A stretch of DNA of 64,000 nt from Escherichia phage SDYTW1-F1-2-2_3: the sequence record OR296290.1. One strand, given 5' to 3'. Made by a program: the position numbers and the translations under genes. The notes beneath the pieces are model-generated. The model was not told the DNA's origin, ran no database searches, and was given only the letters and a program-made list of their open reading frames with translations. Shown piece by piece: positions 1 through 44,000 of the stretch. How positions within the stretch are numbered: the first letter of the stretch is position 1; the number at the start of each line of letters is the position of its first letter.

Positions 1-372
1 TAAAGCCTTTGCTTCTTCCTCTCCTTCAAGAAGTGTTCCAGAACCAGAATGTAGATCATCGGGTCGAGAGAAGATTTCTTTAGGTATAAAAATATCTACT
101 GCTCCATCTTTATATCTACGACTCATCTCATTCCAAGAAAAACCAACTTGGTGCTTCTGTAGCTGTCGTGCAATTGCTATAGGGGCTTCGCATCTGAAAC
201 TAGCTTGTGGGTGGCGAAAAGGACTTACATGTCGTTCCCGAGCCAGGAAATTAATTAGACGGGTGTCACTCTCTTTTAGCTCCTCTCTTTCTACTCCCAT
301 GGTTACACGAGCAGCGTTGACTACTGTAAGATCAGAACCGAAGTTATCAATTAATGAAGCTTTGATTGTCAT
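1..372 (-). CDS. thyX: ThyX-like flavin-dependent thymidylate synthase, 5' part; gene continues past window start
   Basis: ATG at 372 with AAGGAGA SD. Manual translation MTIKASLIDNFGSDLTVVNAARVTMG...HVSPFRHPQASFRCEAPIAIARQLQKHQVGFSWNEMSRRY parallels the ThyX core, but the RHR motif reads KHQ. Confidence 0.6.
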   Translation of the reverse strand, partial: MTIKASLIDNFGSDLTVVNAARVTMGVEREELKESDTRLINFLARERHVSPFRHPQASFRCEAPIAIARQLQKHQVGFSWNEMSRRYKDGAVDIFIPKEIFSRPDDLHSGSGTLLEGEEEAKAL

Positions 373-838
373 TTATATAAGTCTCCTTGACTTTATTATA
401 TTCCCTAGAGGCTTCTTCTACGGTTGAGAAGAGTCCTATGTGCTTAGATTTAAATACCGCCCGGTAAGCAATAGAGCCGCTTTTTCTTCTATGAACAGTC
501 ACTCCAATTACTCCGGTTGATAGGTTATTACTCTGAGCTATTTTGTTGAGACCATTCCCTGACCTAGTAGTCCCTCTAAGGTTCTCTCTTTTATTATTCA
601 GTCTGTTGCGGTCTATGTGGTCCACTTCTTCAGGAAGTAATCCAGTGTCCCACCAGTAAGCAAGTCGATGAGCATAATACCTAACACCTTTATAAATGAT
701 TCTCAAATACCCATTGGTATTTACAGAACCAGCTATAGACCCTTTGTGTCCTTTTCCATAAGTTTTAACCCATCGGAAATCTCCAGTCAAGGGGTCGTAA
801 TCAAGAGCTTCTTTTATTGATGGGTCAATATCATTCAT
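347..838 (-). CDS. HNH homing endonuclease with AP2-type DNA-binding domain
   Basis: 163 aa; HRLAYWW...VDHIDRNRLNNKRENLR (HNH) then GVIGVTVHRRKSGSIAYRAVF (AP2-like). Last 8 codons overlap the thyX start. Confidence 0.7.
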   Translation of the reverse strand: MNDIDPSIKEALDYDPLTGDFRWVKTYGKGHKGSIAGSVNTNGYLRIIYKGVRYYAHRLAYWWDTGLLPEEVDHIDRNRLNNKRENLRGTTRSGNGLNKIAQSNNLSTGVIGVTVHRRKSGSIAYRAVFKSKHIGLFSTVEEASREYNKVKETYINDNQSFIN

Positions 839-853
839 CCGTGAATTTCCTTA

Positions 854-1063
854 TTAATATTCTTTTACATAATAAACCACTAAGGTTCCCATCTCTGACA
901 GTGTTGATTTATGTAAGCTTACTTTACTATAAATCTTTGGGGTCATCTTAAGAGCCTTCTTAAAACGGCGAGCATCTTTACGAGTAGCAAAGTGCTCTGT
1001 AACAGGTATAGCCGGGTCTTGGTAGAGGTAATATACCACCGTCCAATATTTTTTCATAATCAA
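854..1063 (-). CDS. small protein, VYY-tail paralog family (copy 1)
   Basis: 69 aa; shares W..v....TRK.AR..KK...(V/I)YY pattern with 2917-3532 copies. Confidence 0.45.
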   Translation of the reverse strand: MIMKKYWTVVYYLYQDPAIPVTEHFATRKDARRFKKALKMTPKIYSKVSLHKSTLSEMGTLVVYYVKEY

Positions 1064-1332
1064 ACACCTAGGGCAGTAGTTAAGAATGCTTTCAGGTTTG
1101 CTTCGGTCTGCATACCAGAGAGACTATAGTGTGCACCACTATTACGGTCAGGTACAACGAAAGCAGGGATGCTTCTTACACCATACTTAACAGCTTGTTC
1201 ACGACCATCACCTTCAAGGATGTTAATCTCTTCTACTTCTACATCGAACTCCTTAACAACCTTCTCAAAGGTAGGAACCATTGCTTTACATGGAGCACAC
1301 TGATCACTATAAAACTTAATCACTTTAGACAT
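1060..1332 (-). CDS. glutaredoxin/thioredoxin-fold redoxin (CAPC active site)
   Basis: Track ORF trimmed to ATG 1332 (MSKVIKFYSDQCAPCKAM...); CxxC near N-terminus followed by a redoxin-like fold pattern. Confidence 0.6.
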   Translation of the reverse strand: MSKVIKFYSDQCAPCKAMVPTFEKVVKEFDVEVEEINILEGDGREQAVKYGVRSIPAFVVPDRNSGAHYSLSGMQTEANLKAFLTTALGV

Positions 1333-1333
1333 T

Positions 1334-1510
1334 CTATTCCTTGTTAATAAACAGGTTGATATGACGTTGGGTAGCAGGAACAACAATAAAAGATTTATAC
1401 TGACCTTTTGCTAAGTCATGAGCAATCTTCTTTGTTTGACCAAGACCCATCACACAGCCACTAACGATAATGGCATGTGCTTGCAACTCTTCAGGGAGTT
1501 TTAGTTTCAT
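1334..1510 (-). CDS. hypothetical protein (58 aa)
   Basis: Below track cutoff; ATG 1510, stop 1334-1336; fills gap between flanking genes. Confidence 0.3.
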   Translation of the reverse strand: MKLKLPEELQAHAIIVSGCVMGLGQTKKIAHDLAKGQYKSFIVVPATQRHINLFINKE

Positions 1511-1522
1511 TCTTCAGGTTCC

Positions 1523-1708
1523 TTACAGCATAGCAAGAATGATAATAAGAGGTAATGTTATAGCGAAATTAATAAGAACAGCGCTGCCTAGCTTGATAGC
1601 TTTAACATCCTCTTCTGATGGGTTTTCTTTAATTGCTAAATTTCGAGCTTTATATATAACAGTACCAATTATTAACGACCACACGGCCCACACAATCAGT
1701 GAAATCAT
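1523..1708 (-). CDS. small membrane protein (paralog A)
   Basis: 61 aa, MISLIVWAVWSLIIGTVIY... two hydrophobic segments; SD AAGGG upstream. Confidence 0.45.
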   Translation of the reverse strand: MISLIVWAVWSLIIGTVIYKARNLAIKENPSEEDVKAIKLGSAVLINFAITLPLIIILAML

Positions 1709-1717
1709 ATCAAACCC

Positions 1718-1897
1718 TTATGCAGTCAGGAGGTGAAGCAGGAATGGGATAACAACAGCTACGATAACCATGATGGTTGATGCTGTTTGAATCTCACCTT
1801 TCTTGTCAGGAGTTTCTTCAATAAGCTTGCCAGAAGCCCAATAGATACCACCACCAATAAAGATAGCCCAAATACCCCATACGATTGCTGATAACAT
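1718..1897 (-). CDS. small membrane protein (paralog B)
   Basis: 59 aa manual ORF MLSAIVWGIWAIFIGGGIYW... parallels paralog A; replaces track ORF 1759-2013. Confidence 0.4.
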   Translation of the reverse strand: MLSAIVWGIWAIFIGGGIYWASGKLIEETPDKKGEIQTASTIMVIVAVVIPFLLHLLTA

Positions 1898-1958
1898 ATA
1901 TCTATATCCTTATAAATAAGTTCGCCCCACCTCGGGTTAGGAGACAGGGCGGAGGTTT

Positions 1959-2522
1959 TTAGTAAGACACATCGCCACTTGAGTGGGACATGTTGCTCTT
2001 GACGAAGTAGCAATACTTGCCAAGACCTTCATTAATTTCTTGAAGCATACTCTGATCAACTGGATAAGTGGCTAAATCACCATCAAACTCATCCATCTTC
2101 TCTATAATACACATCAAGGTCATGCACATATCAGAGAGCATACCATCCATGTCTAGGTCAGCATTACCCTCTGAGAACCAAGCATGGGAGAGATAATTGG
2201 CTGCTGTAGCATCCACTTTAACACAGTGGTAACGCATACGTTCAGCAATACGATCTCCTACTTGCCGTGCGTAATCTTCCAGCTCATCAAACATACCATG
2301 AACACCCTGAAATCCTGCACCAGAGACGTTCCAGTGGTAGTTTTTAGCTTTAATATGCAAGAGTTCCATGTTAGCTTGTAAGCAGCTCAGGATGTGTTCT
2401 AGGCTGTTTCCACTAATCATACCCTGCATCGTTTCAAGGCGAGAGATTGAAAGCTCAGACCGGTCTAACATATTATAGTCGGCACGACCGATTTCAGGTA
2501 AATCAAAGACATTCTTATGCAT
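1959..2522 (-). CDS. Dps/ferritin-like protein
   Basis: NYHWNVSGAGFQGVHGMFDELEDYARQVGDRIAERM matches Dps signature region; start moved to ATG 2522 (GGAGA SD). Confidence 0.6.
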   Translation of the reverse strand: MHKNVFDLPEIGRADYNMLDRSELSISRLETMQGMISGNSLEHILSCLQANMELLHIKAKNYHWNVSGAGFQGVHGMFDELEDYARQVGDRIAERMRYHCVKVDATAANYLSHAWFSEGNADLDMDGMLSDMCMTLMCIIEKMDEFDGDLATYPVDQSMLQEINEGLGKYCYFVKSNMSHSSGDVSY

Positions 2523-2844
2523 TTGGGTTATCTCCATCAAGTTCAACTGAATTAGCAACGTTACGTTCGATGTTTGCCATTACCTGCTGGGTAATTACGA
2601 TGCAGTTCTGTGGGTCTACTGACTTAGAACGTCCCATTTCAGGGTCATACACCTTAACTCGCTTAGCAGTTGAACCTGTGACCTGAAGAACCTTCAACAG
2701 ATATCCCTGATTACCGATAGACCAAGCAACAACATCACGATTCTTGATAAAGCGACCAAGCATATCACGATGATAAAACTGTTGCATCACCTTGGATTTT
2801 GTAATCTCTTCAGTGGGCGGGGCCACTTTACTCAAATCTAACAT
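2515..2844 (-). CDS. hypothetical protein
   Basis: 109 aa; AATGTATATA motif about 38 nt upstream of ATG. Confidence 0.5.
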   Translation of the reverse strand: MLDLSKVAPPTEEITKSKVMQQFYHRDMLGRFIKNRDVVAWSIGNQGYLLKVLQVTGSTAKRVKVYDPEMGRSKSVDPQNCIVITQQVMANIERNVANSVELDGDNPNA

Positions 2845-2916
2845 AACTCTCTCCTGTAAAATACAAATTCTTATTGTACTCTATATACATTTGAGAGTTA
2901 CCATATCTACTACCAA

Positions 2917-3126
2917 TCAGTAGTAAATTACTTTAGACATAAAAGAACCCGAGTTAGGGTCTTCGTACCAGCGATGTATATCAGCGCTTTTTACTATTGT
3001 GCCCAGAGTCTTCAACTGTTTCTTAGCAATACGAGCCTCTTTGCGAGTGTCAAACAATTTGATGCTATCTTTTCTCGTGTGTTGATCAAGATCCCAAACA
3101 ACACGAATCGCCCACATCTTTTTCAT
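2917..3126 (-). CDS. small protein, VYY-tail paralog family (copy 2)
   Basis: 69 aa, ends VIYY; tandem with next two copies. Confidence 0.5.
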   Translation of the reverse strand: MKKMWAIRVVWDLDQHTRKDSIKLFDTRKEARIAKKQLKTLGTIVKSADIHRWYEDPNSGSFMSKVIYY

Positions 3127-3335
3127 TAGTAATGTACCTTTCCGCTGATATAAACACGACCAGAAGAATACTCCTTGGCCTTATGGATACTGATACTGTT
3201 GACCACGTCACCAGTAAGCATAGTCTTTTTAAAATCTCGAGCCTGTTGACGAGTAGGAAGTGCAGTCATAGTCATACCACCTGATGCCCACTTAATCTTT
3301 GCTAACCAAAACTGTCTCATAGTGATTGGTCTCAT
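3126..3335 (-). CDS. small protein, VYY-tail paralog family (copy 3)
   Basis: 69 aa, ends KVHY; stop/start abut neighbours. Confidence 0.5.
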   Translation of the reverse strand: MRPITMRQFWLAKIKWASGGMTMTALPTRQQARDFKKTMLTGDVVNSISIHKAKEYSSGRVYISGKVHY

Positions 3336-3532
3336 TAATAATAAACCTTGCTGTTGGCAAAAAGAGCACCTTCGTTATTCACAATAGCTTTTCCTATTGT
3401 AACCTTATTGAGTCTAAAAGTAGACTTGTATTGATTTTTGACCCTACGTGCGTGATCTCGAGTCTTAACAAAATCTAAAGCTACTAACTCTCCAGTCGTG
3501 TTATCATGTACACGAACAATCCACTTTTTCAT
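3335..3532 (-). CDS. small protein, VYY-tail paralog family (copy 4)
   Basis: 65 aa, ends KVYY. Confidence 0.5.
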   Translation of the reverse strand: MKKWIVRVHDNTTGELVALDFVKTRDHARRVKNQYKSTFRLNKVTIGKAIVNNEGALFANSKVYY

Positions 3533-3735
3533 TTTATTAAACCCTTCATATAGTTATAAAGATCATTAGAGGCTTTACCCCATTCAAGGTGCTTCTTATC
3601 CATATAGCTCTTACAAGCTTCTTTACTACTTTCATCACAAGTATCAAATCGATGACATGCTCGACCAAATGTCATAGCTTTTAATTGAACCTCGGTAGTC
3701 AAACCTTTCAGTTCTTGGAACTCTTCTTCAGTCAT
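3529..3735 (-). CDS. hypothetical protein (68 aa)
   Basis: ORF packed between flanking genes with 4-nt overlap. Confidence 0.4.
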   Translation of the reverse strand: MTEEEFQELKGLTTEVQLKAMTFGRACHRFDTCDESSKEACKSYMDKKHLEWGKASNDLYNYMKGLIK

Positions 3736-4269
3736 TTACACACCTTTAGATGCAACCACACCTTCAGAATTATTATAACGGCCTTTCACTGCATAGGAAT
3801 GTTCCCCTGCATGAGAGTGCTCAAACATAACCATCTGACCGACACGCATACCAGCACGAACTCGTAAGCTGTGGTGTTTGGTTACATTGTGGAATTCAAA
3901 CGTCAGCTTACTGCTGTTAAATCCTGCATCTGCCCATCCGGCGTGAAGGTGGTTCAAACCACAACGAGCCATAGACGAACGCAGAACAAACAGACTTGAG
4001 ATGTTATCTGGAAGATTAAACTCCTCCATGGAGTGAGCCAAGAAGAACTGACCCGGAGTGATAACCAAACCCTCTTCAGGAATCTTTACTTCCTTCCACT
4101 GAAGATTCTCTTTCGCATCAATATCAACGATGCCATCAGCCTGTTCTTCAACAAGGATAGTATCACCAATACGGATATCCACACTAGCAGCGTTAACATA
4201 CTTATGCTCCGCATCCAGATAGCCATTATCAATTACATCGTGCAGTTCAACACTTCCTAGTAAACTCAT
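3736..4269 (-). CDS. dCTP deaminase/dUTPase-fold protein
   Basis: RSSMARCGL...AGWADAGFNSSKLTFEFHN resembles dCTP deaminase signature. Confidence 0.65.
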   Translation of the reverse strand: MSLLGSVELHDVIDNGYLDAEHKYVNAASVDIRIGDTILVEEQADGIVDIDAKENLQWKEVKIPEEGLVITPGQFFLAHSMEEFNLPDNISSLFVLRSSMARCGLNHLHAGWADAGFNSSKLTFEFHNVTKHHSLRVRAGMRVGQMVMFEHSHAGEHSYAVKGRYNNSEGVVASKGV

Positions 4270-4278
4270 TCTTATTCC

Positions 4279-5577
4279 TTAGTTATTTGTTTCCATGTCA
4301 AAAGAGATTCCACGACCCGCTTCATCGGCAAACCGAACTGTACGGGTTTGAGGCTCTAATACTTCAGGGTTGTTAGCAACAAACCGATCAGCGAGATTGC
4401 GGCTGACGGTCTCAGCTAATTCACCATGAGAAGGGACGTCAAGATCACCAACAGCGAAACCCTGACCAGAGAACTGGTGACGGCTGACAGTCAAACCATT
4501 TGATTGACCATTAGAACGTCTAGACAACCACCGCTCAAATGAATCGCCAGTAACACCAAGAGCTTCTTCAAAAGATGTTCTACGAGTAGAGCTTAGATTT
4601 CGTGCTTCGTTTGCTCGACGTCTTGCAGGGGCTACAAACACCCCTTCAACTGCATTGTGTCGGTTAGGTTCATCTTCCCGACCAAGGAGATCTCCTCCTG
4701 TATTGGTTGTTAAGTTTGTTAACCCTTCAGACCAATACGCACGAATCTGACTAGAGCCATTAACACTTGACATTAACTGAATCTCTTCGTAAGGGATTCC
4801 AAAGAATCGACTCATGTCTTGGTCAACACAATATTGAGGACTTGCTGTGTCGCCAATAAGAGATACTTGACCTTGACTATTAACCAGATCCCTGACCATT
4901 TGAGGTATAGGTTGTTGCCGAGCATGTGCCATATAATGAAAAGCAACTCCCGGGGTTTGGAACCTTAACACTTGTGAGTTAGGCCACTTCTTGTGGACAT
5001 ATTTAATCTCTCGAGCAGTCACAACCACTGGAATTGGAGAAGTCATAGCCAAGTATCCATGAACGGTCATGAATAGCTTATCAAGAGTCATAGCACCACG
5101 ACACATCATAGGAAAATTACCCAATACCTCTTCAATAGAAGTAGGATAATTAAACATGAATTGGATACGAACCCCATTCCACTGAAACTCAATGATATCA
5201 GTGAATGTTAATTGAGAAGTTCCTGTGTATGGCTCATCTGTAGCTTCAGCAAGAAGGGATGAATACTCAATATCTTGTGATTCAAGCCATTCCTTCACGT
5301 TACTTTCAATCTCTCTTCCAAGAGCTTGCCAACGGTCAGTTGGGATGAACATGTTTTGAGTTCTTGGTGTTTGTCCTCTGACAATAAAGATATCAATGTC
5401 ATGTGGAGCTGTGTTATTAAGCACAGCATCACGAACAGCCCCACCAGTAATGAGGGGACAGATACCGTCTGGAACCAAGTTGTTGTTAATCAACTGTTCA
5501 ATGAAATGACGACCAACAGTAATATCAGGTTGTTGAGCAACCTTATCTTCAATTCGGTTAATCGGAATAACAATCAT
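4279..5577 (-). CDS. Pol-beta superfamily nucleotidyltransferase (CCA-adding / poly(A) polymerase-like head)
   Basis: Start set to ATG 5577 (MIVIPIN...), 1 nt after exonuclease stop. Motif GGAVRDAVLNNTAPHDIDIF matches the GGxVRD...DxD NTase signature. Confidence 0.6.
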   Translation of the reverse strand: MIVIPINRIEDKVAQQPDITVGRHFIEQLINNNLVPDGICPLITGGAVRDAVLNNTAPHDIDIFIVRGQTPRTQNMFIPTDRWQALGREIESNVKEWLESQDIEYSSLLAEATDEPYTGTSQLTFTDIIEFQWNGVRIQFMFNYPTSIEEVLGNFPMMCRGAMTLDKLFMTVHGYLAMTSPIPVVVTAREIKYVHKKWPNSQVLRFQTPGVAFHYMAHARQQPIPQMVRDLVNSQGQVSLIGDTASPQYCVDQDMSRFFGIPYEEIQLMSSVNGSSQIRAYWSEGLTNLTTNTGGDLLGREDEPNRHNAVEGVFVAPARRRANEARNLSSTRRTSFEEALGVTGDSFERWLSRRSNGQSNGLTVSRHQFSGQGFAVGDLDVPSHGELAETVSRNLADRFVANNPEVLEPQTRTVRFADEAGRGISFDMETNN

Positions 5578-5578
5578 T

Positions 5579-6133
5579 TTACATTTTCCAATATAATGAA
5601 GGTGGGTCGTAAGGGTCAAATCCTGTGAGTTCACACAAGTATTTATAAACCTTAACGGTTAAGTTAACGTCCTGTTCACAATAAGTAAACATATCTTCAG
5701 TGAAAGCATCCCATGCTTCCTCTTGCTCACCGTAATCACCTTTAAGTTCCTCTAAGAACTCACCCCATTGCTTCAAGCCATGACCTCTTGGGCCATGTCT
5801 AGGGTCACCTTTCGGGTACTCAGGACTGTCACCAATACGGTCAGGTTTAAGATATCGACTAAGACATAGAGTGTCGAAGACGTTAAAATGATATTTAATC
5901 AGATTGGGATACATCTTCTTCAGAGCACAAAGGTCGAAGTCAATAATATTATGACCTACTAGCACATCAGCTTCTGTAAGTTTACGAATCCCATCTTCAA
6001 TTTGGTGAGGCCGATAGCCCCACCTTTCACCAGTTTCAACATCGAAGATGTAAATACACCACACTTTAGTTATGTCATCGTACAGTGCATTACTCTCGAT
6101 ATCAAATGCAAACACTTTCTTTTTCTTTACCAC
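5579..6133 (-). CDS. DEDDy-type 3'-5' exonuclease
   Basis: GTG start; Exo I FDIES, Exo II HNIIDFD, Exo III YCEQD motifs. Confidence 0.7.
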
Positions 6134-29847: not shown

Positions 29848-30092
29848 TTAGGCAAATCACAATCAAGAAGACCAGCAAGCGACAAATCACCGTCAATGTA
29901 GATCGACTTGAAATCATCACGGGTAATTTCAAAATTAGCAAAGGCTAACCAATCCTTAAGAGGCTGAAATTCCATCCTGCAAAAAGTGATAACAGGCAAG
30001 ATTATCTGACCGTCAAGTGTATTAAACATGATAGAGCTTCCACCAACAAAACAAGAAAAACCGTTAGATAATTTAACTTCTTTAATAGCCAT
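29841..30092 (-). CDS. hypothetical protein (83 aa)
   Basis: Track ORF in central island. Confidence 0.4.
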   Translation of the reverse strand: MAIKEVKLSNGFSCFVGGSSIMFNTLDGQIILPVITFCRMEFQPLKDWLAFANFEITRDDFKSIYIDGDLSLAGLLDCDLPKW

Positions 30093-30118
30093 TTTTTACA
30101 CTCCCAAAAATAGATTAT

Positions 30119-30610
30119 TTACTTACTGGCCTTGATGCAGTTGGCTAGATTAACGTGAACTGTATAAACAGCATTATCAGTGTTATTGTAAACCGTGGTG
30201 GCAAGTATTGATTCATTCATCGGGCCATAACTGACCAGATTCGTGACAGCTTTCGCATGGCTGTAACGTTGTACAGTGCCATACGTCACCATATCCGCAT
30301 CATTATCAGTGCGCTTAAGTACCAGATCATTGTTAGGCTGATTGTCCAGTGTTTTGGTACTAACGACCAGACCATTACGAGAAACGTTACTAAATTTAAC
30401 TTTTAAAACTACTTGATTAGTGTCACTATCCGCACCATTGCAAATCATCCAACCCTTACTAACAGAATTAGCGAAGACACTAGCGGCATCAGTTGCAGGG
30501 GCAGGACTAGCAACAGCCTTATCAGAAAGAGATGTGACCAGTGCACTAACACCGATAGCTGCAACCAGTGCATAGCTTGCCAGATTTACTACCTGCATTA
30601 CCTTAGCCAT
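30119..30610 (-). CDS. secreted protein with signal peptide (163 aa)
   Basis: MAKVMQVVNLASYALVAAIGVSALVTSLS signal-like N-terminus. Confidence 0.5.
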   Translation of the reverse strand: MAKVMQVVNLASYALVAAIGVSALVTSLSDKAVASPAPATDAASVFANSVSKGWMICNGADSDTNQVVLKVKFSNVSRNGLVVSTKTLDNQPNNDLVLKRTDNDADMVTYGTVQRYSHAKAVTNLVSYGPMNESILATTVYNNTDNAVYTVHVNLANCIKASK

Positions 30611-30913
30611 TTGTTAACCCTCGTTAATATGTATTTAGTTTTTATGTTTCACAAGATAGCACATATTTCTACTTCATACGTAGGGTCATTGCTCAGTTGA
30701 CCACTTCACTGACTCGATAGTGTCCCAGCTTTCACCAGTCAATCGCAGAGTCCTTATCTTTAAACATTCTCCACTACTTAGGACGATTATCCTTCATGGA
30801 GCTTACTACCATCTAGCTACTTTGCATCACTGCTTCGCTTCGATGAATACAATTTACTACTTCTTAATAAAGAAAGCAAGTCCTACGGGTAAAATATTTC
30901 TACTATCTCTATA

Positions 30914-31327
30914 GGACGGGGAACATACAACCGCAGAACAGACCACGGGGAAACATAGCAAGATAGTGCGGTAATAATATACCACTTAAATAATTGTATA
31001 ACTCAAACATCAAAGACCATTCGCTACGCTCATGCACGCTGAAAAAGAAAGTAATAAAAGAAATAATAACATACATCAATCATTATCCACTTAATTAATA
31101 CATACATCATTATTGCACTCATAATCATCACTATTGAAACTATTTACATTCAAACTATGGGGAACGTGGGCTATTACTTATGGGTATTATATCGCCTTAA
31201 ACTATTGGTACAGTGAGGGACTAGCCTTTCTCTCACTCAGTAAAGGGGAACTAAATAAACGGGTAGGTAATGAATAGGATGGTATACACGGGGAAAGAAT
31301 AACGGGGAGTAGGCACGGGGAAAGGTT
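30914..31327 (+). repeat. cluster of six ACGGGGAA-core direct repeats
   Basis: Copies at 30914, 30943, 31158 (TGGGGAAC variant), 31289, 31302, 31315; CACGGGGAAAG exact at 31288 and 31314. Confidence 0.55.
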
Positions 31328-31517
31328 GGAACGTTGATAGGGATGTAAAGGCATTGCCAATAACCATTTTTTATTTGAGGACTCCCCCTTTTTAACAATT
31401 CGCCGCGGGGTGCCTAGCCCCACTCGGTCAAATCAGAATTTTAAACAGATATATACATCTTTATTTTTTATAAATCTGTATTTTAAACTCTTATATATAA
31501 GGTTAAGAGAGAACTTA

Positions 31518-31679
31518 ATGAATCTAATTAAAGTATTTAGACGGATGAAGTGTAAGCACAATTACTATCTTCTTCGTAAAGCTTACGGGGATGAAAGAAT
31601 ACATGGTCTCTACCTATCAACATGGAAGTGTAAGGAATGTGGTAAGTTGAGATTCAGTACATGGGTGGATAGGCCTTAA
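31518..31679 (+). CDS. small zinc-ribbon-like protein (53 aa)
   Basis: Track ORF trimmed to ATG 31518 (AGAGAGAA SD); CKHN...CKECG. Confidence 0.4.
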   Translation: MNLIKVFRRMKCKHNYYLLRKAYGDERIHGLYLSTWKCKECGKLRFSTWVDRP

Positions 31680-31687
31680 CGTGACAT

Positions 31688-31772
31688 GGCCTTTATGACA
31701 TGAGGGTGCCTTTATGAAGTCCCCTTTACATCAGAGATTATGGGTAGGCCTTTAGATGATAGTGCCTTTATG
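31688..31772 (+). repeat. three GTGCCTTTATG-type direct repeats
   Basis: Copies at 31688-31697, 31707-31716, 31763-31772, plus variant GGCCTTTAGATG at 31748. Confidence 0.45.
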
Positions 31773-31807
31773 GGTAAAACCCCTCCCTTTTCAGAGGAGA
31801 TATAAAA

Positions 31808-32080
31808 ATGATTCTAGACTTTTTATCAGAGTTGATTCCTTACTTCCGCACTGAAAAATGTGCATTTAAAGTTGAAGAAGTTGGGGGCACTGAAGTAATA
31901 ACTTGTTTGGGTAGATTAGTAGACCTAGACGATGATGAAGATTTTGATGTTACAATAGACCTGAGTTCATTGGGCTGGTTGTACATGAGATGCTTTGTAA
32001 CCTACAAGGCTGAGACTTATAAAGACTATCGTTATAGTGATAACACTGACACTGACACTGAAGGAGAGAATGATGAATAA
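31808..32080 (+). CDS. hypothetical acidic protein (90 aa)
   Basis: Track ORF; C-terminal DTDTDTEGENDE. Confidence 0.45.
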   Translation: MILDFLSELIPYFRTEKCAFKVEEVGGTEVITCLGRLVDLDDDEDFDVTIDLSSLGWLYMRCFVTYKAETYKDYRYSDNTDTDTEGENDE

Positions 32081-40329: not shown

Positions 40330-41082
40330 ATGGCGATGCCTGAAGTGCAAAACCCGACTAACACGTATGGCTGGCTTAAGAAAGCTGTTGCCTTGTGGGC
40401 CGATCGAGACGATGATGAATTTGTTAATCAAATTCCAAACTTTATTAACTTTGCAGAGAAAGAGATTTATCGTAACTTACGTATCCCTCCTCTGGAAAAA
40501 GAAGTGTATTTAGATATTAAAGATGGAGTAGCTTATATTCCTCCTGATTACTTAGAAGCTCAATGGATGATGAGAGCCAAAGACGGAACAATCTTCCAAG
40601 TAACATCTCCTGAGGAGATTAGCTATCGTAGACAGCATGGAACAATTAACCCATCTCACTGGAACAACCAACCTGTTAACTTTGCTCGTTTCGGTAGTCG
40701 TTTCATTTTCTACCCTAGAATCGAAGCAGACACTCCTGTTTACCCTGATGATGGAAGTCCTTTGATTCCAGCAGAAAACTCAGTAATTCTTAGCTATTAT
40801 GCAGATCCACCGGAATTTCATGAAGATGAAGATACTAGTGCAATCCTCACTATCGCACCAGAGCTTCTTCTGTATTTTACTCTACGTCATGCTTGCTTGT
40901 TTGTTCAAGATGATAACGGAGTTCAGAAATGGTCAGCATTAGGAAAAGCTATCCTTGATGAAATGGTAGAGCAGAATAAGAAGCAAGAGTACTCAGGTTC
41001 ACCTATCGCAATTCCGAATAACATGACTCGACTTCAGAGCAGCTTGCCTGATATTTATGGTATTCGTACTTCTCGTGTATAA
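40330..41082 (+). CDS. virion structural protein (putative)
   Basis: 250 aa, AAGGAGG SD, preceded by TAATGTATA motif and terminator. Confidence 0.5.
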   Translation: MAMPEVQNPTNTYGWLKKAVALWADRDDDEFVNQIPNFINFAEKEIYRNLRIPPLEKEVYLDIKDGVAYIPPDYLEAQWMMRAKDGTIFQVTSPEEISYRRQHGTINPSHWNNQPVNFARFGSRFIFYPRIEADTPVYPDDGSPLIPAENSVILSYYADPPEFHEDEDTSAILTIAPELLLYFTLRHACLFVQDDNGVQKWSALGKAILDEMVEQNKKQEYSGSPIAIPNNMTRLQSSLPDIYGIRTSRV

Positions 41083-41091
41083 GGAGATAAT

Positions 41092-44000
41092 ATGATCGTT
41101 TATAATAACCAAGCACCTGATGCAGTGAATAACGTTGGGCAGTTTGGTGCTACAGAAGGCTCTATCGGAGCTTACAAGCAAGCAGCAGAATATGCAGCTG
41201 ATTCTAAGTATTGGGCATTACTGGCTGAGTCTAAGTTTGGCACAATCGATGATCTGATTGCTGAAGTAGAACGTCTATATCAACAGGGTGTTCTGATGCA
41301 GCAAGACATTGAGGCTTTGAAGCAGGATTTTAGAGACCAAGATGCTCATTTAATGCAACTTATCGCTCAGACTAACGCAGCTGTTTCTGATGCACAGAAC
41401 GCTCTGGCTCTTATGGACCAGAAGCTGATTGAAGTTCAGGAACGACTGGATATTCTGTTAGGTATGTCTGTTGACGTCACTACACTTCCTCCGGGAAATG
41501 AAGCTTCTGGGCATTTTGACCCTAACACTGGTGTTATCTCTTTGGGTATCCCTCAAGGTGTTCCGGGTAAAGATGGTACAGTAACAGATTTGAATAACGC
41601 ACCAACCGGTGTTCCTGTTCTTGGTGATGTAGGTTTCTATGTTGATAAAGATGACAACACTGTTCACAAAACGTCTTTAGAGAATATTGCAAACCTTATC
41701 CCATCTGTTCGTTCTATCTCTGTAAACGGCGGTCCTGCTGAGAGTGGTGAAGTTGCTCTAACTCTTGACAAAAGTACTGTTGGGTTAAGTAATGTAGAGA
41801 ACGTGGCTTCTTATAGTAAAGAGGTTGTTGATAACAAAGTTGATGGTTTTATTAAAACATACAGCTCTAAAGCTGAAGCGGATGCAGATGCTGTTAATCG
41901 TGAGGCTGGAGAAACTGTTTTAGTGTGGGAAAACACTCAGTATGTTTTCTACAAAGTGGCTGCTGATAAGATTCTAGATTTAAGTAAAACAGAACCTCGG
42001 GTTATTACTGTCAACTCTCGTATTCCTGACTCTAGCGGTAACATTGATATTACAATCCCTACAGGGAACCCATCCTTGTATCTAGGTGAATTATTGATGT
42101 TCCCTTATGACCCATCTCGCCCTATTTCTTATCCTGGGATTTTACCTGCTGACGGTCGTTTGGTGTCCAAGGATTTGGCTAGCGATTTAGGTGCTTCTTT
42201 AGTTAGTGGTCAGCTTCCGGTTGTGTCTGAGACAGAATGGCAAGCAGGTGCTAAGCAGTATTATTCTTGGGGTAAACTGGCTGATGGGCTGACTGATGCA
42301 GACTCTACCAACTACATCAACATCCGTCTTCCTGATTGGACTGGTGGTGAAGCTATTAGATCTCCTAACCTAACTGGCGATGCTTCTTATGACGGTAAGC
42401 CATTAGATCAGAAACCTTACATCGTTACTGTTAACGGAATTGCTCCTAACGATATCACAGGAAACGTCAACATAACAGCTGCAAATATAGGCGCTTTGGC
42501 TAAGTCTGGTGGTATCATGGACGGAAACTTAGTCCTTAACAAAGCTGTATCTTTACGCAGAATAAAGGATAATGACACTCAAGTTAACATGGTATCGAGA
42601 AGTGACTCTGATGCTTCTGTACTTGGTGACCACTTAGCTAAGACTGTAATAGCTTCTTCCGAGACACCAATCTTCTCTAAACCGGAAGGGGATTATAAGT
42701 TTTATACAGAGGATAACAAACCTACGAACGTTGATGTTGGTGCTGCTGGTATTGATGTTAATGGTGTAAACTCTGACATAAAAACTTTCACTCAAAAGGT
42801 TACGTTCCAGCAACCTGTTACTGTGGCAGATGCTGTTGGAGACTATGATGCTGTTACCTTACGTCAACTAAGAAACCAAGGTGGTGGAGGTGGCGGTTCT
42901 ACGATGAATGGTATCTCCAACTTCAATATTGGTGATTTCCGACTAGTAGATAGTCGAGCTTTTATCCAAGCAAATGATGTTGTGTCTGATGGTCAACTTT
43001 TGAACAGGGCCGAGTATCCTGAGCTTTGGGCGTATGCTCAGATGCTCACCCCTATAGAGGATTCTGAGTGGATTTCAACCCCTTCCAAGAGATCTCAATA
43101 TTCACTAGGAGATGGCTCTACTACATTCCGTGTCCCTGATAGGAATGGTGTTCAGAGTGGCTCTGTTAAGGCTTTATATGGAAGAGGTGACGGTGGAGGT
43201 TCTTACGGAGGTATTTATGATAGTGGGATTCCTGACATAACTGGTCAGTTCAGAGCTTATGGATACAATGCAGGTGAACCTACAGGTGCATTTGGTTCCT
43301 ATAATAGTGGTAGCGCTGAGTTTGAATTAAAATCTACATCTGCTAATTTTACTAGGTACAACACATTCACCATAAGTGCCGGAAGGGTTAACTCTGTTTA
43401 TGGAAGAGCAGACGAGGTCAGGCCTAGATCTTTCGTCGGTGTATGGGTGATTCGTGCTAAAGGGGCTTTCATCGCTGCCAATACAACATGGTCAGTAATT
43501 AATAGTGACACCTCTCGTCCTTCTGACGGAACCACTGTGACTGGTGGTAATGTAATATCTGAATATAAAGTAGGGGCAGAATCTGAAGGTTCAGCCGAGT
43601 TCCGAATGGTTGGAACGATTGGAAGCTCTTATTCTGCTAGAATTGGTGTTTACAACAAAACATCAAGTAAAGGAACTACTTTTGATTTTACTGAGGCCGG
43701 TAATATAGAGACTCCCAAAGGTCGTGTTTTGGTGAAAGGGGATTACGGTGTTGGTGCTCAGGGAAGTGTTGTATTACCTGAAACTAACTATAACCAGCTC
43801 ATAACAGATTCAGATGGTGCCTCATCGTGGGCAGCTGCTAATGGAGGGGGTATACAAACTTCCTATGCCGTAAATAGAATCTGTCAATTTTGGGTAAGTC
43901 TGAGTGGTTCGGCTTATATCAGATCTAATACACTGAACAACAACCCAAAAGAACTCAAATCCAATCTTCCGTGGACAACTCTCCAGAATGCTGGAACCTC

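What the first reader, a model, noticed from the sequence alone, without database searches (positions are those of the whole stretch)
854..3532. Four paralogous 65-69 aa proteins ending in V-[YH]-Y, three in tandem
ORFs 854-1063, 2917-3126, 3126-3335 and 3335-3532 share W near residue 5-10, a central TRK.AR..KK block and a C-terminal K-V-[IYH]-[YH]-Y. The three tandem copies have abutting stop and start codons. The family is basic and has no recognisable catalytic motif, so it may bind nucleic acid or a protein. Tandem amplification suggests dosage or diversification pressure.
Basis: seen in the sequence. Interest (0 to 1): 0.5.

Follow-up and report, generated by a model that had tools for sequence, protein, structure and literature searches.

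The report
Small basic phage paralogue family, function unknown
Four diverged copies of a tiny, strongly basic protein found only in phiEco32-like E. coli phages sit inside the phage's DNA-replication and nucleotide-metabolism genes; they are real, conserved genes of unknown function that most likely bind nucleic acid or a partner protein.

Summary
The window is a Kuravirus (phiEco32-like) coliphage, about 97% identical to NJ01/XT18. The four minus-strand ORFs all match one uncharacterised family, phrog_4939, at E 1e-26 to 1e-28. They are D 3335-3532, C 3126-3335, B 2917-3126 and A 854-1057. The tandem three correspond to phiEco32 gp71/70/69; A has no phiEco32 counterpart. No fifth copy exists in the window.

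An exhaustive profile search of 1.84 billion proteins found only 30 clusters, all 47-79 aa. No Pfam, NCBIfam, PADLOC or PDB sequence match appeared.

Every relative I examined lies either just after dCTP deaminase or just before ThyX. Those after dCTP deaminase form arrays of 1-3 genes with overlapping stop and start codons.

Orthologues show purifying selection (informative dN/dS comparisons about 0.13-0.52). Paralogues share only about 24-38% identity, so this is old diversification, not dosage amplification.

Function is unknown. My best guess, at low confidence, is non-enzymatic polyanion (nucleic acid) binding by diversified paralogues. Interest is moderate to low.

The parts
3335..3532 (-). 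Paralogue D (65 aa), first gene of the tandem array; orthologue of phiEco32 gp71
   Evidence: phrog_4939 E 1.1e-26. 84.6% identical to the phiEco32 locus, annotated as phi32_71. Its ATG overlaps the stop of the upstream ORF as ATGA. tblastn detects it in 64 phage records. dN/dS 0.22-0.52.
3126..3335 (-). Paralogue C (69 aa, or 64 aa if the internal ATG at 3320 is used), second gene of the array; orthologue of phiEco32 gp70
   Evidence: phrog_4939 E 6.8e-28. TAATG overlap with the stop of D. Detected in 98 phage records, the most widespread copy. dN/dS 0.13-0.31.
2917..3126 (-). Paralogue B (69 aa), third gene of the array; orthologue of phiEco32 gp69
   Evidence: phrog_4939 E 2.7e-28. TAATG overlap with the stop of C. 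Detected in 94 phage records. AlphaFold model pLDDT 87.9, strand-strand-helix-strand-strand. dN/dS 0.20-0.34.
854..1057 (-).
   Evidence: phrog_4939 E 8.7e-26. AlphaFold model pLDDT 89.0 with the same topology. Detected in 40 phage records and absent from phiEco32, SU10 and SU7 at this position. Distant relatives also carry a copy immediately upstream of ThyX.
2884..2892 (-). AAATGTATA, a match to the phiEco32 gp36-sigma middle/late promoter element (tAATGTAtA), in the 72-nt spacer just after B. It marks the downstream boundary of the transcription unit that carries the array.
   Evidence: One search gives the position. PMC8948821 reports an experimentally located gp36-dependent promoter in front of phiEco32 gene 68. 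The spacer is nearly invariant across phiEco32, SU10, SU7 and a distant metagenomic relative.
3529..3735 (-). Context only: an unrelated 68-aa ORF (phrog_2347) between dCTP deaminase and D, translationally coupled to D
   Evidence: Present in SU10 and NJ01 and absent from phiEco32, where gp71 abuts dCTP deaminase directly. Not a family member.
3736..4269 (-). Context only: dCTP deaminase, the conserved upstream neighbour of the array in every relative examined
   Evidence: Annotations and Pfam DCD hits on metagenomic contigs L006, L007, L011, L012 and L013.

Best explanation
These are four anciently diverged paralogues of one lineage-restricted, uncharacterised protein family: PHROG 4939, which includes phiEco32 gp69, gp70 and gp71.

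Each protein is a single 65-69-residue, strongly basic domain with a predicted strand-strand-helix-strand-strand (β-β-α-β-β) fold. They are non-virion, pre-late gene products. D, C and B form the translationally coupled tail of the replication and nucleotide-metabolism transcription unit: primase/helicase, exonuclease, nucleotidyltransferase, dCTP deaminase, then D-C-B. That unit ends just before the gp36-dependent promoter of gene 68. A sits next to ThyX.

The mechanism I think most likely is non-enzymatic binding of a polyanion, and I favour nucleic acid (phage DNA, or RNA). Under this view the family-invariant N-cap and basic stripe of the helix (T27, R28, R32, K35, usually K36 and K39) act as the common anchor. 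The β-sheet face not covered by the helix and the two hairpin tips differ between paralogues and supply paralogue-specific recognition. The paralogues may act together as a hetero-oligomer.

Shown here: paralogy, restriction to phiEco32-like phages, conserved synteny, coupled gene junctions, purifying selection, high charge, and a confidently predicted fold.

Inferred only: that they bind anything, what they bind, and how they assemble.
For: - Family membership and paralogy.
- Narrow distribution: 98 hits, many on contigs of about 77 kb. Only 30 clusters with E ≤ 1e-3 among 1.84 billion representatives. tblastn hits only E. coli and Shigella Gordonclarkvirinae records.
- Conserved position: directly after dCTP deaminase and before the gp68-like and Dps/ferritin-like genes, or directly before ThyX, in all eight divergent metagenomic loci examined. 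Triple arrays with abutting genes occur in L011/L012 and L013/L014.
- Real coding genes: informative dN/dS comparisons about 0.13-0.52 in the orthologue groups.
- Charge: pI 9.8-10.6, net +7 to +9.
- Fold: β-β-α-β-β for B (pLDDT 87.9) and A (pLDDT 89.0).
- Conservation pattern: W5, T27, R28, A31, R32, K35 and Y69 are invariant or nearly so across the family. Most other positions are conserved within an orthologue group but differ between groups.
- No match to any enzyme family or catalytic signature.
- The sheet-face positions of A are rich in Tyr and those of the others in Arg, Lys and His. This is read from the alignment plus the predicted strands and is inference.
Against: - Foldseek finds nothing in the PDB below E = 0.2.
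- A high pI is also typical of proteins that dock onto acidic protein partners.
- I could not inspect model coordinates, so the surface exposure of the conserved residues is deduced from strand and helix periodicity only.
- W5, A31 and T27 are probably structural. R28 and R32 could simply salt-bridge the conserved C-terminal carboxylate.
- SU10 lysate proteomics detected the neighbours gp65, gp67 and gp68 but not gp69-71. Lys/Arg-rich 8-kDa proteins are, however, poorly seen after trypsin digestion.
Confidence: 0.35

Rival explanations
1. They are small protein-binding modulators or inhibitors, either host-takeover or anti-defence factors. Each paralogue uses the same scaffold with different loops to dock onto a different, probably acidic, host or phage protein, as many 6-10-kDa phage inhibitors do.
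For: - Small size, simple α/β sandwich and no enzymatic signature.
- Paralogue-specific variable surfaces on a fixed scaffold.
- Copy number varies from 1 to 4 between related phages, and A and D are accessory, detected in 40 and 64 of about 98 records.
- Gordonclarkvirinae are reported to be remarkably resistant to restriction-modification systems without any known inhibitor or modification pathway (PMC11990801).
Against: - B and C are near-universal and syntenic across genera and distant metagenomic relatives.
- They evolve under purifying selection. Core-like behaviour is less typical of arms-race anti-defence genes.
- They sit in the replication and nucleotide-metabolism module, not in the variable early host-takeover region.
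- No fold match to an inhibitor is significant.
Confidence: 0.3
2. They are accessory, regulatory or ligand-binding subunits tied to the adjacent pyrimidine enzymes, dCTP deaminase and ThyX. They could act as adaptors of a dNTP-synthesis complex, as small nucleotide-binding proteins, or as part of an unrecognised DNA-modification route.
For: - Members lie immediately downstream of dCTP deaminase, with gaps of 0-5 nt in phiEco32, L011 and L015, or immediately upstream of ThyX in L006 and L016.
- Coupled translation suggests fixed stoichiometry.
- The invariant Arg/Lys, the near-conserved His51 and the terminal Tyr could form a phosphate and base pocket. This is inference.
Against: - The whole module is compact, so adjacency to both enzymes may be trivial.
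- In Salmonella phage 7-11 the only (weak) family-like ORF is not near either enzyme.
- The number of copies (1-4) does not track the enzymes.
- There is no similarity to known nucleotide-binding folds or sponge proteins.
Confidence: 0.12
3. The ORFs are not expressed as proteins. They are chance ORFs or remnants, and the similarity reflects repeated DNA.
For: No direct proteomic detection in the one dataset I could read.
Against: - Profile E-values of 1e-26 to 1e-28.
- More than 100 homologues of conserved length.
- dN/dS well below 1 with saturated dS between genera.
- Conserved stop/start coupling and Shine-Dalgarno-like sequences.
- Confident structure predictions.
- The opposite strand carries only short ORFs, and there are no Rfam matches.
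Confidence: 0.02

Closest known systems
PHROG family phrog_4939 (unknown function), including phiEco32 gp69, gp70 and gp71 and their Kuravirus, Suseptimavirus and Nieuwekanaalvirus counterparts
   Same: Direct membership. All four window proteins match full length at E 1e-26 to 1e-28. B and C are 100% identical to proteins of NJ01, XT73 and other phages. Gene order matches phiEco32.
   Different: Nothing differs in kind. The family has no assigned function, and I found no paper that discusses it. Copy A is an extra, dispersed member that phiEco32 lacks.
RRM/ferredoxin-like and palm-type β-sheet nucleic-acid-binding domains (for example ribosomal protein bS6, the MEC-8 RRM, reverse transcriptase and cyclase palm domains)
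Small phage-encoded inhibitor proteins with simple α/β folds (phi29-family p56 Ung inhibitor, AcrIIC3)
   Same: Size of 50-120 aa, a sheet-plus-helix architecture, phage origin and no enzymatic motif. They appear as weak fold neighbours.
AP2/integrase-type DNA-binding domain (present in the neighbouring HNH endonuclease at 347-838)
   Same: A superficially similar 'β-strand, F-x-T-x-E-A, helix' motif.
   Different: The profile comparison gives a probability of 0.9% over 19 columns. They are not related.

Membership tests
phrog_4939 (phiEco32 gp69-71 family) | Significant full-length match to the family profile HMM | tested here: met
   All four proteins match at E 8.7e-26 to 2.7e-28, covering profile positions 1-67 of 67 (2-67 for D).
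phrog_4939 (phiEco32 gp69-71 family) | Orthology and synteny with the phiEco32 genes: dCTP deaminase, then gp71-gp70-gp69, then the gene-68 promoter and gp68 | tested here: met
   phiEco32 annotation, tblastn identities of 84.6-91% for D and B against phiEco32, and near-identical intergenic promoter region.
Any Pfam-A, NCBIfam or PADLOC family | Score at or above the curated threshold | tested here: not met
   The only Pfam hits are sub-threshold: CrgA at 13.9 bits against a cutoff of 24.8, and L13e at 15.1 against 24.9. NCBIfam and PADLOC give nothing.
AP2/integrase-like DNA-binding domain | Profile-level homology to an AP2 domain | tested here: not met
   hhalign against the window's own HNH-AP2 protein gives probability 0.9%, E 0.058 over 19 columns. 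This was tested against a single AP2 sequence only.
RRM / ferredoxin-like fold | β-α-β-β-α-β topology with RNP1/RNP2 motifs | tested here: not met
Nucleic-acid-binding proteins (functional class, not a homology family) | Demonstrated binding to DNA or RNA | not testable with these tools
   Only indirect indicators are available: pI 9.8-10.6 and an invariant basic helix stripe.
Virion structural proteins | Detection in purified or concentrated particles; location in the late gene cluster | tested here: not met
   Not among the 34 proteins detected in the SU10 preparation. The genes lie in the leftward early/middle cluster.

The most novel reading that the evidence does not exclude
The conserved D-C-B array, with A, could encode a phage-specific hetero-oligomeric DNA-coating or DNA-masking system, or part of an unrecognised DNA-protection route linked to the adjacent dCTP deaminase and nucleotidyltransferase genes. 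Such a system might underlie the unexplained, pronounced resistance of Gordonclarkvirinae to restriction-modification systems noted for the BASEL isolates (PMC11990801). On that reading the predicted fold would define a new class of small nucleic-acid-binding domain.
Probability: 0.1. Interest if true: 0.7.

Novelty: new variant of a known kind. Interest (0 to 1): 0.33.

Why it matters
As it stands, this is a well-defined but uncharacterised ORFan family.

- It is confined to phiEco32-like phages.
- It is core-like: two copies are nearly universal.
- It is always embedded in the DNA-replication and pyrimidine-synthesis module.
- Its confidently predicted fold has no close solved relative.

Kuraviruses are common phage-therapy candidates, and their molecular biology is poorly studied. 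They are reported to resist restriction-modification systems by an unknown mechanism (PMC11990801).

A conserved set of small, basic, co-translated proteins next to dCTP deaminase is a reasonable and cheap candidate to test. K-12-infecting isolates (Bas86-Bas94) exist that carry these genes.

If the proteins turn out to be ordinary accessory DNA- or RNA-binding proteins, the value is limited to annotating phrog_4939.

Tried and rejected
1. Curated libraries. Pfam, NCBIfam and PADLOC scans gave only sub-threshold noise (CrgA, L13e).
2. PDB sequences. The profile against PDB sequences gave a best E of 1.4, a spurious 32-residue match to a platelet aggregation factor.
3. Fold searches.
   - Foldseek against the PDB: nothing below E 0.2.
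   - BFVD: the top eight hits (E ≤ 0.01) are all uncharacterised proteins of Kuravirus-like and other phages.
   - The afdb50 library was unavailable.
4. AP2-domain homology, suggested by the F-x-T-x-E-A motif: rejected at hhalign probability 0.9%.
5. Widening the family. A second-round profile that included the most distant members found no annotated or multidomain relatives. The search for related loci with the distant alignment failed because it had no conserved stretch. tblastn with the metagenomic member P0115 found nothing in the phage collection.
6. Recent tandem duplication or dosage amplification: rejected. Only a 38-nt, 66-76% identical DNA remnant is left.
7. RNA elements on either strand of 1-6000: no Rfam match.
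8. Promoter and terminator scan: no more sites than in shuffled sequence. The count of the gp36 promoter motif in the window is also not above chance, so only its homologous position is meaningful.
9. Literature. No paper I could search discusses these genes. The two primary phiEco32 papers (PMC2587145, PMC3275717) are not held.
10. Positional orthology of the triple arrays between distant lineages could not be resolved. All cross-lineage identities are 17-41%.
Full report
**What the window is.** Bases 500-4500 match 98 phage records. The best are Escherichia phages vB-EcoP-XT18 (96.9%) and NJ01 (97.6%), both genus Kuravirus, subfamily Gordonclarkvirinae. This is the phiEco32 group of prolate podoviruses. 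All genes in the first ~30 kb, including the finding, lie on the minus strand. That matches the leftward early/middle gene cluster described for phiEco32 (PMC8948821).

**Checking the observation.** The four ORFs exist as described.
- A MAFFT alignment shows invariant Met1, Trp, Thr-Arg, Ala-Arg, Lys and the terminal Tyr.
- All four match one independently built profile, phrog_4939, over their whole length. E-values are 8.7e-26, 2.7e-28, 6.8e-28 and 1.1e-26.
- Five of six pairwise BLASTP comparisons are significant (E 1e-7 to 3e-3). C against D alone is not.
- An HMM of the four finds only these four among the 1006 six-frame ORFs of the window. Their E-values are 1e-30 to 8e-34, and the next hit has E = 2.2.
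- The D/C and C/B junctions are TAATG. The ATG of D overlaps the stop of an unrelated 68-aa ORF as ATGA.

Three corrections apply.
- Copy A ends YYVKEY, so the 'V-[YH]-Y' ending does not apply to it.
- A most likely starts at the ATG at 1057 (67 aa), as in all homologues and annotations.
- C may start at the internal ATG at 3320.

**Extent of the family.**
- A profile search of 5.8 billion proteins returned 98 hits of 48-87 aa (nearly all 64-70 aa). None has a Pfam domain, and many sit on contigs of about 77 kb. They fall into four orthologue groups that correspond to A-D.
- An exhaustive HMMER search of 1.84 billion cluster representatives found only 30 clusters with E ≤ 1e-3, all 47-79 aa.
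- A second-round profile that included the most distant members added nothing annotated or multidomain.
- In the annotated phage collection, tblastn detects C in 98 records, B in 94, D in 64 and A in 40. All are E. coli or Shigella Gordonclarkvirinae.
- In phiEco32 the tandem genes are gp71 (D), gp70 (C) and gp69 (B), and there is no A. SU10 has the same three. SU7 (Suseptimavirus) has only a C-like and a B-like gene.
- Foldseek against viral models adds weak matches in Salmonella phage SE131, two Cronobacter phages (vB_CsaP_009 and GAP52) and Aeromonas phage LAh_8.
- In Salmonella phage 7-11 the family HMM picks up an unannotated ORF carrying KTRAEARAHKK at E 8.8e-5.

**Genomic context.** I retrieved eight loci that encode distant members (L006-L008, L011-L016).
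- In every case the member lies in one of two places. Either it directly follows dCTP deaminase and precedes a 109-111-aa gp68-like gene and a Dps/ferritin-like gene, or it lies directly upstream of ThyX.
- Two divergent lineages (L011/L012 and L013/L014) also carry three abutting members after dCTP deaminase.
- Identities between members of different lineages are only 17-41%, so positional orthology cannot be resolved.
- The 72-nt spacer after B contains AAATGTATA. This matches the tAATGTAtA element of gp36-sigma promoters, one of which was located experimentally in front of phiEco32 gene 68 (PMC8948821).
- The spacer is nearly invariant even in the distant L011.
- The array is therefore the distal, translationally coupled end of the unit that carries primase/helicase, exonuclease, nucleotidyltransferase and dCTP deaminase.

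**Are they real genes?** Pairwise Nei-Gojobori estimates give informative dN/dS values of about 0.13-0.52 in the orthologue groups. dS is saturated between genera.
- The opposite strand has only ORFs of 51 aa or fewer.
- There is no Rfam match on either strand.
- The only residual DNA repeat between copies is a 38-nt block over the TR..AR..KK codons, at 66-76% identity.

The duplications are therefore old, and the paralogues have been retained separately. The SU10 lysate proteomics paper did not detect gp69-71, although it did detect neighbouring gp65, gp67 and gp68 (PMC4281155). This is weak negative evidence for such Lys/Arg-rich 8-kDa proteins.

**Structure.** AlphaFold2 with the family alignment gives confident models.

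| Protein | pLDDT | pTM |
|---|---|---|
| B | 87.9 | 0.71 |
| A | 89.0 | 0.75 |

Both models share one topology: a long β-hairpin, a 12-residue helix, then a second hairpin.
- Foldseek against the PDB gives nothing below E 0.2.
- Profile searches of PDB sequences, Pfam, NCBIfam and PADLOC are negative.
- A suspected resemblance to the AP2 DNA-binding domain was tested and rejected, at hhalign probability 0.9%.

**Inferring function.** The proteins have pI 9.8-10.6 and net charge +7 to +9.
- Family-wide invariants are W5, T27, R28, A31, R32, K35 and the C-terminal Tyr. K36, K39, I50, H51 and G59 are common.
- From strand and helix periodicity, W5 and A31 probably form the core contact and T27 the helix N-cap. 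R28, R32, K35 and K39 form a basic stripe on one flank of the helix. This is inference, because I could not view coordinates.
- Most other positions, especially the two hairpin tips and the sheet face not covered by the helix, are conserved within each orthologue group but differ between groups.

This is the pattern expected of a common scaffold and anchor with paralogue-specific recognition.

There is no enzymatic signature, and the genes are core-like and fixed in the replication and nucleotide-metabolism module. I therefore favour non-enzymatic binding of a polyanion, most likely nucleic acid, possibly as a hetero-oligomer (confidence about 0.35).

The rivals are:
- a protein-binding inhibitor or modulator role, about 0.3;
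- a role tied to dCTP deaminase or ThyX, or to nucleotide binding, about 0.12;
- non-expression, about 0.02, which is effectively excluded.

**Comparison with what is known.** Membership in phrog_4939 (phiEco32 gp69-71) is established, but that family has no function and I found no paper that discusses it. No characterised family passes a membership test. The BASEL extension paper notes that Gordonclarkvirinae are remarkably resistant to restriction-modification systems without a known modification or inhibitor. It also points to the conserved dCTP deaminase and nucleotidyltransferase locus (PMC11990801). The array lies just downstream of dCTP deaminase in that syntenic gene block, which makes it a testable candidate. 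Nothing here links it to that phenotype.

**Verdict.** 'Diversification' is supported and 'dosage' is not. This is a real, conserved, lineage-restricted ORFan family with a confidently predicted fold that has no close solved relative, already catalogued as an unknown-function PHROG. Interest is moderate to low (0.33). The most novel reading not excluded is a new small DNA-binding or protection system behind Kuravirus restriction resistance, with a probability of about 0.1.

Noticed in passing
window 1523-1708 (-) and 1718-1897 (-): A second tandem paralogue pair: two small predicted membrane proteins of 61 and 59 aa. They are 33% identical (BLASTP E 7e-11) and both match phrog_9296, a family of unknown function. 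They lie between the Dps-like gene and thioredoxin.
   Followed up: partly
window 2845-2916 (-), the spacer between B and the gp68-like gene: This spacer is far more conserved than the flanking coding sequence. TGGTAGTAGATATG and AATGTATATA are invariant in phiEco32, SU10, SU7 and a distant metagenomic relative whose family proteins are only about 25-35% identical. AATGTATA fits the gp36-sigma promoter. The conserved upstream block is unexplained.
   Followed up: partly
window 347-838 (-): An HNH endonuclease with an AP2-like C-terminal region (phrog_99, E 2.7e-45) is inserted between paralogue A and ThyX. It is absent at this site in phiEco32 and SU10 and present in XT18 and SU7. XT18 carries a second HNH insertion between the gp68-like and Dps-like genes.
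   Followed up: partly
window 3529-3735 (-): A 68-aa ORF (phrog_2347, unknown function) lies between dCTP deaminase and D, and its stop overlaps the start of D (ATGA). It is present in SU10 and NJ01 but absent from phiEco32, where gp71 abuts dCTP deaminase.
   Followed up: partly
L009 (Salmonella phage 7-11, NC_015938) 40948-41202 (-): An unannotated ORF, MSKVQWEVHF...KTRAEARAHKK...YKKVR, matches the family HMM at E 8.8e-5. It lies between gp054 and gp055 and overlaps the end of gp055. It may be a remote member in a different family of phages (Grimontviridae), and it is not near dCTP deaminase or ThyX.
   Followed up: partly
L001 1524-1727 (NJ01_076, orthologue of window 854-1057): The GenBank/RefSeq product name 'putative ABC transporter' for the copy-A orthologue has no support. 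It is a 67-aa soluble basic protein of phrog_4939.
   Followed up: yes
window 21745-21821 (-): A single tRNA-Arg (anticodon TCT), as reported for other Kuravirus-like phages (PMC9965538).
   Followed up: no
window ~30000-32000: GC skew changes sign from negative to positive. This is consistent with the junction between the leftward early/middle cluster and the rightward late cluster.
   Followed up: no
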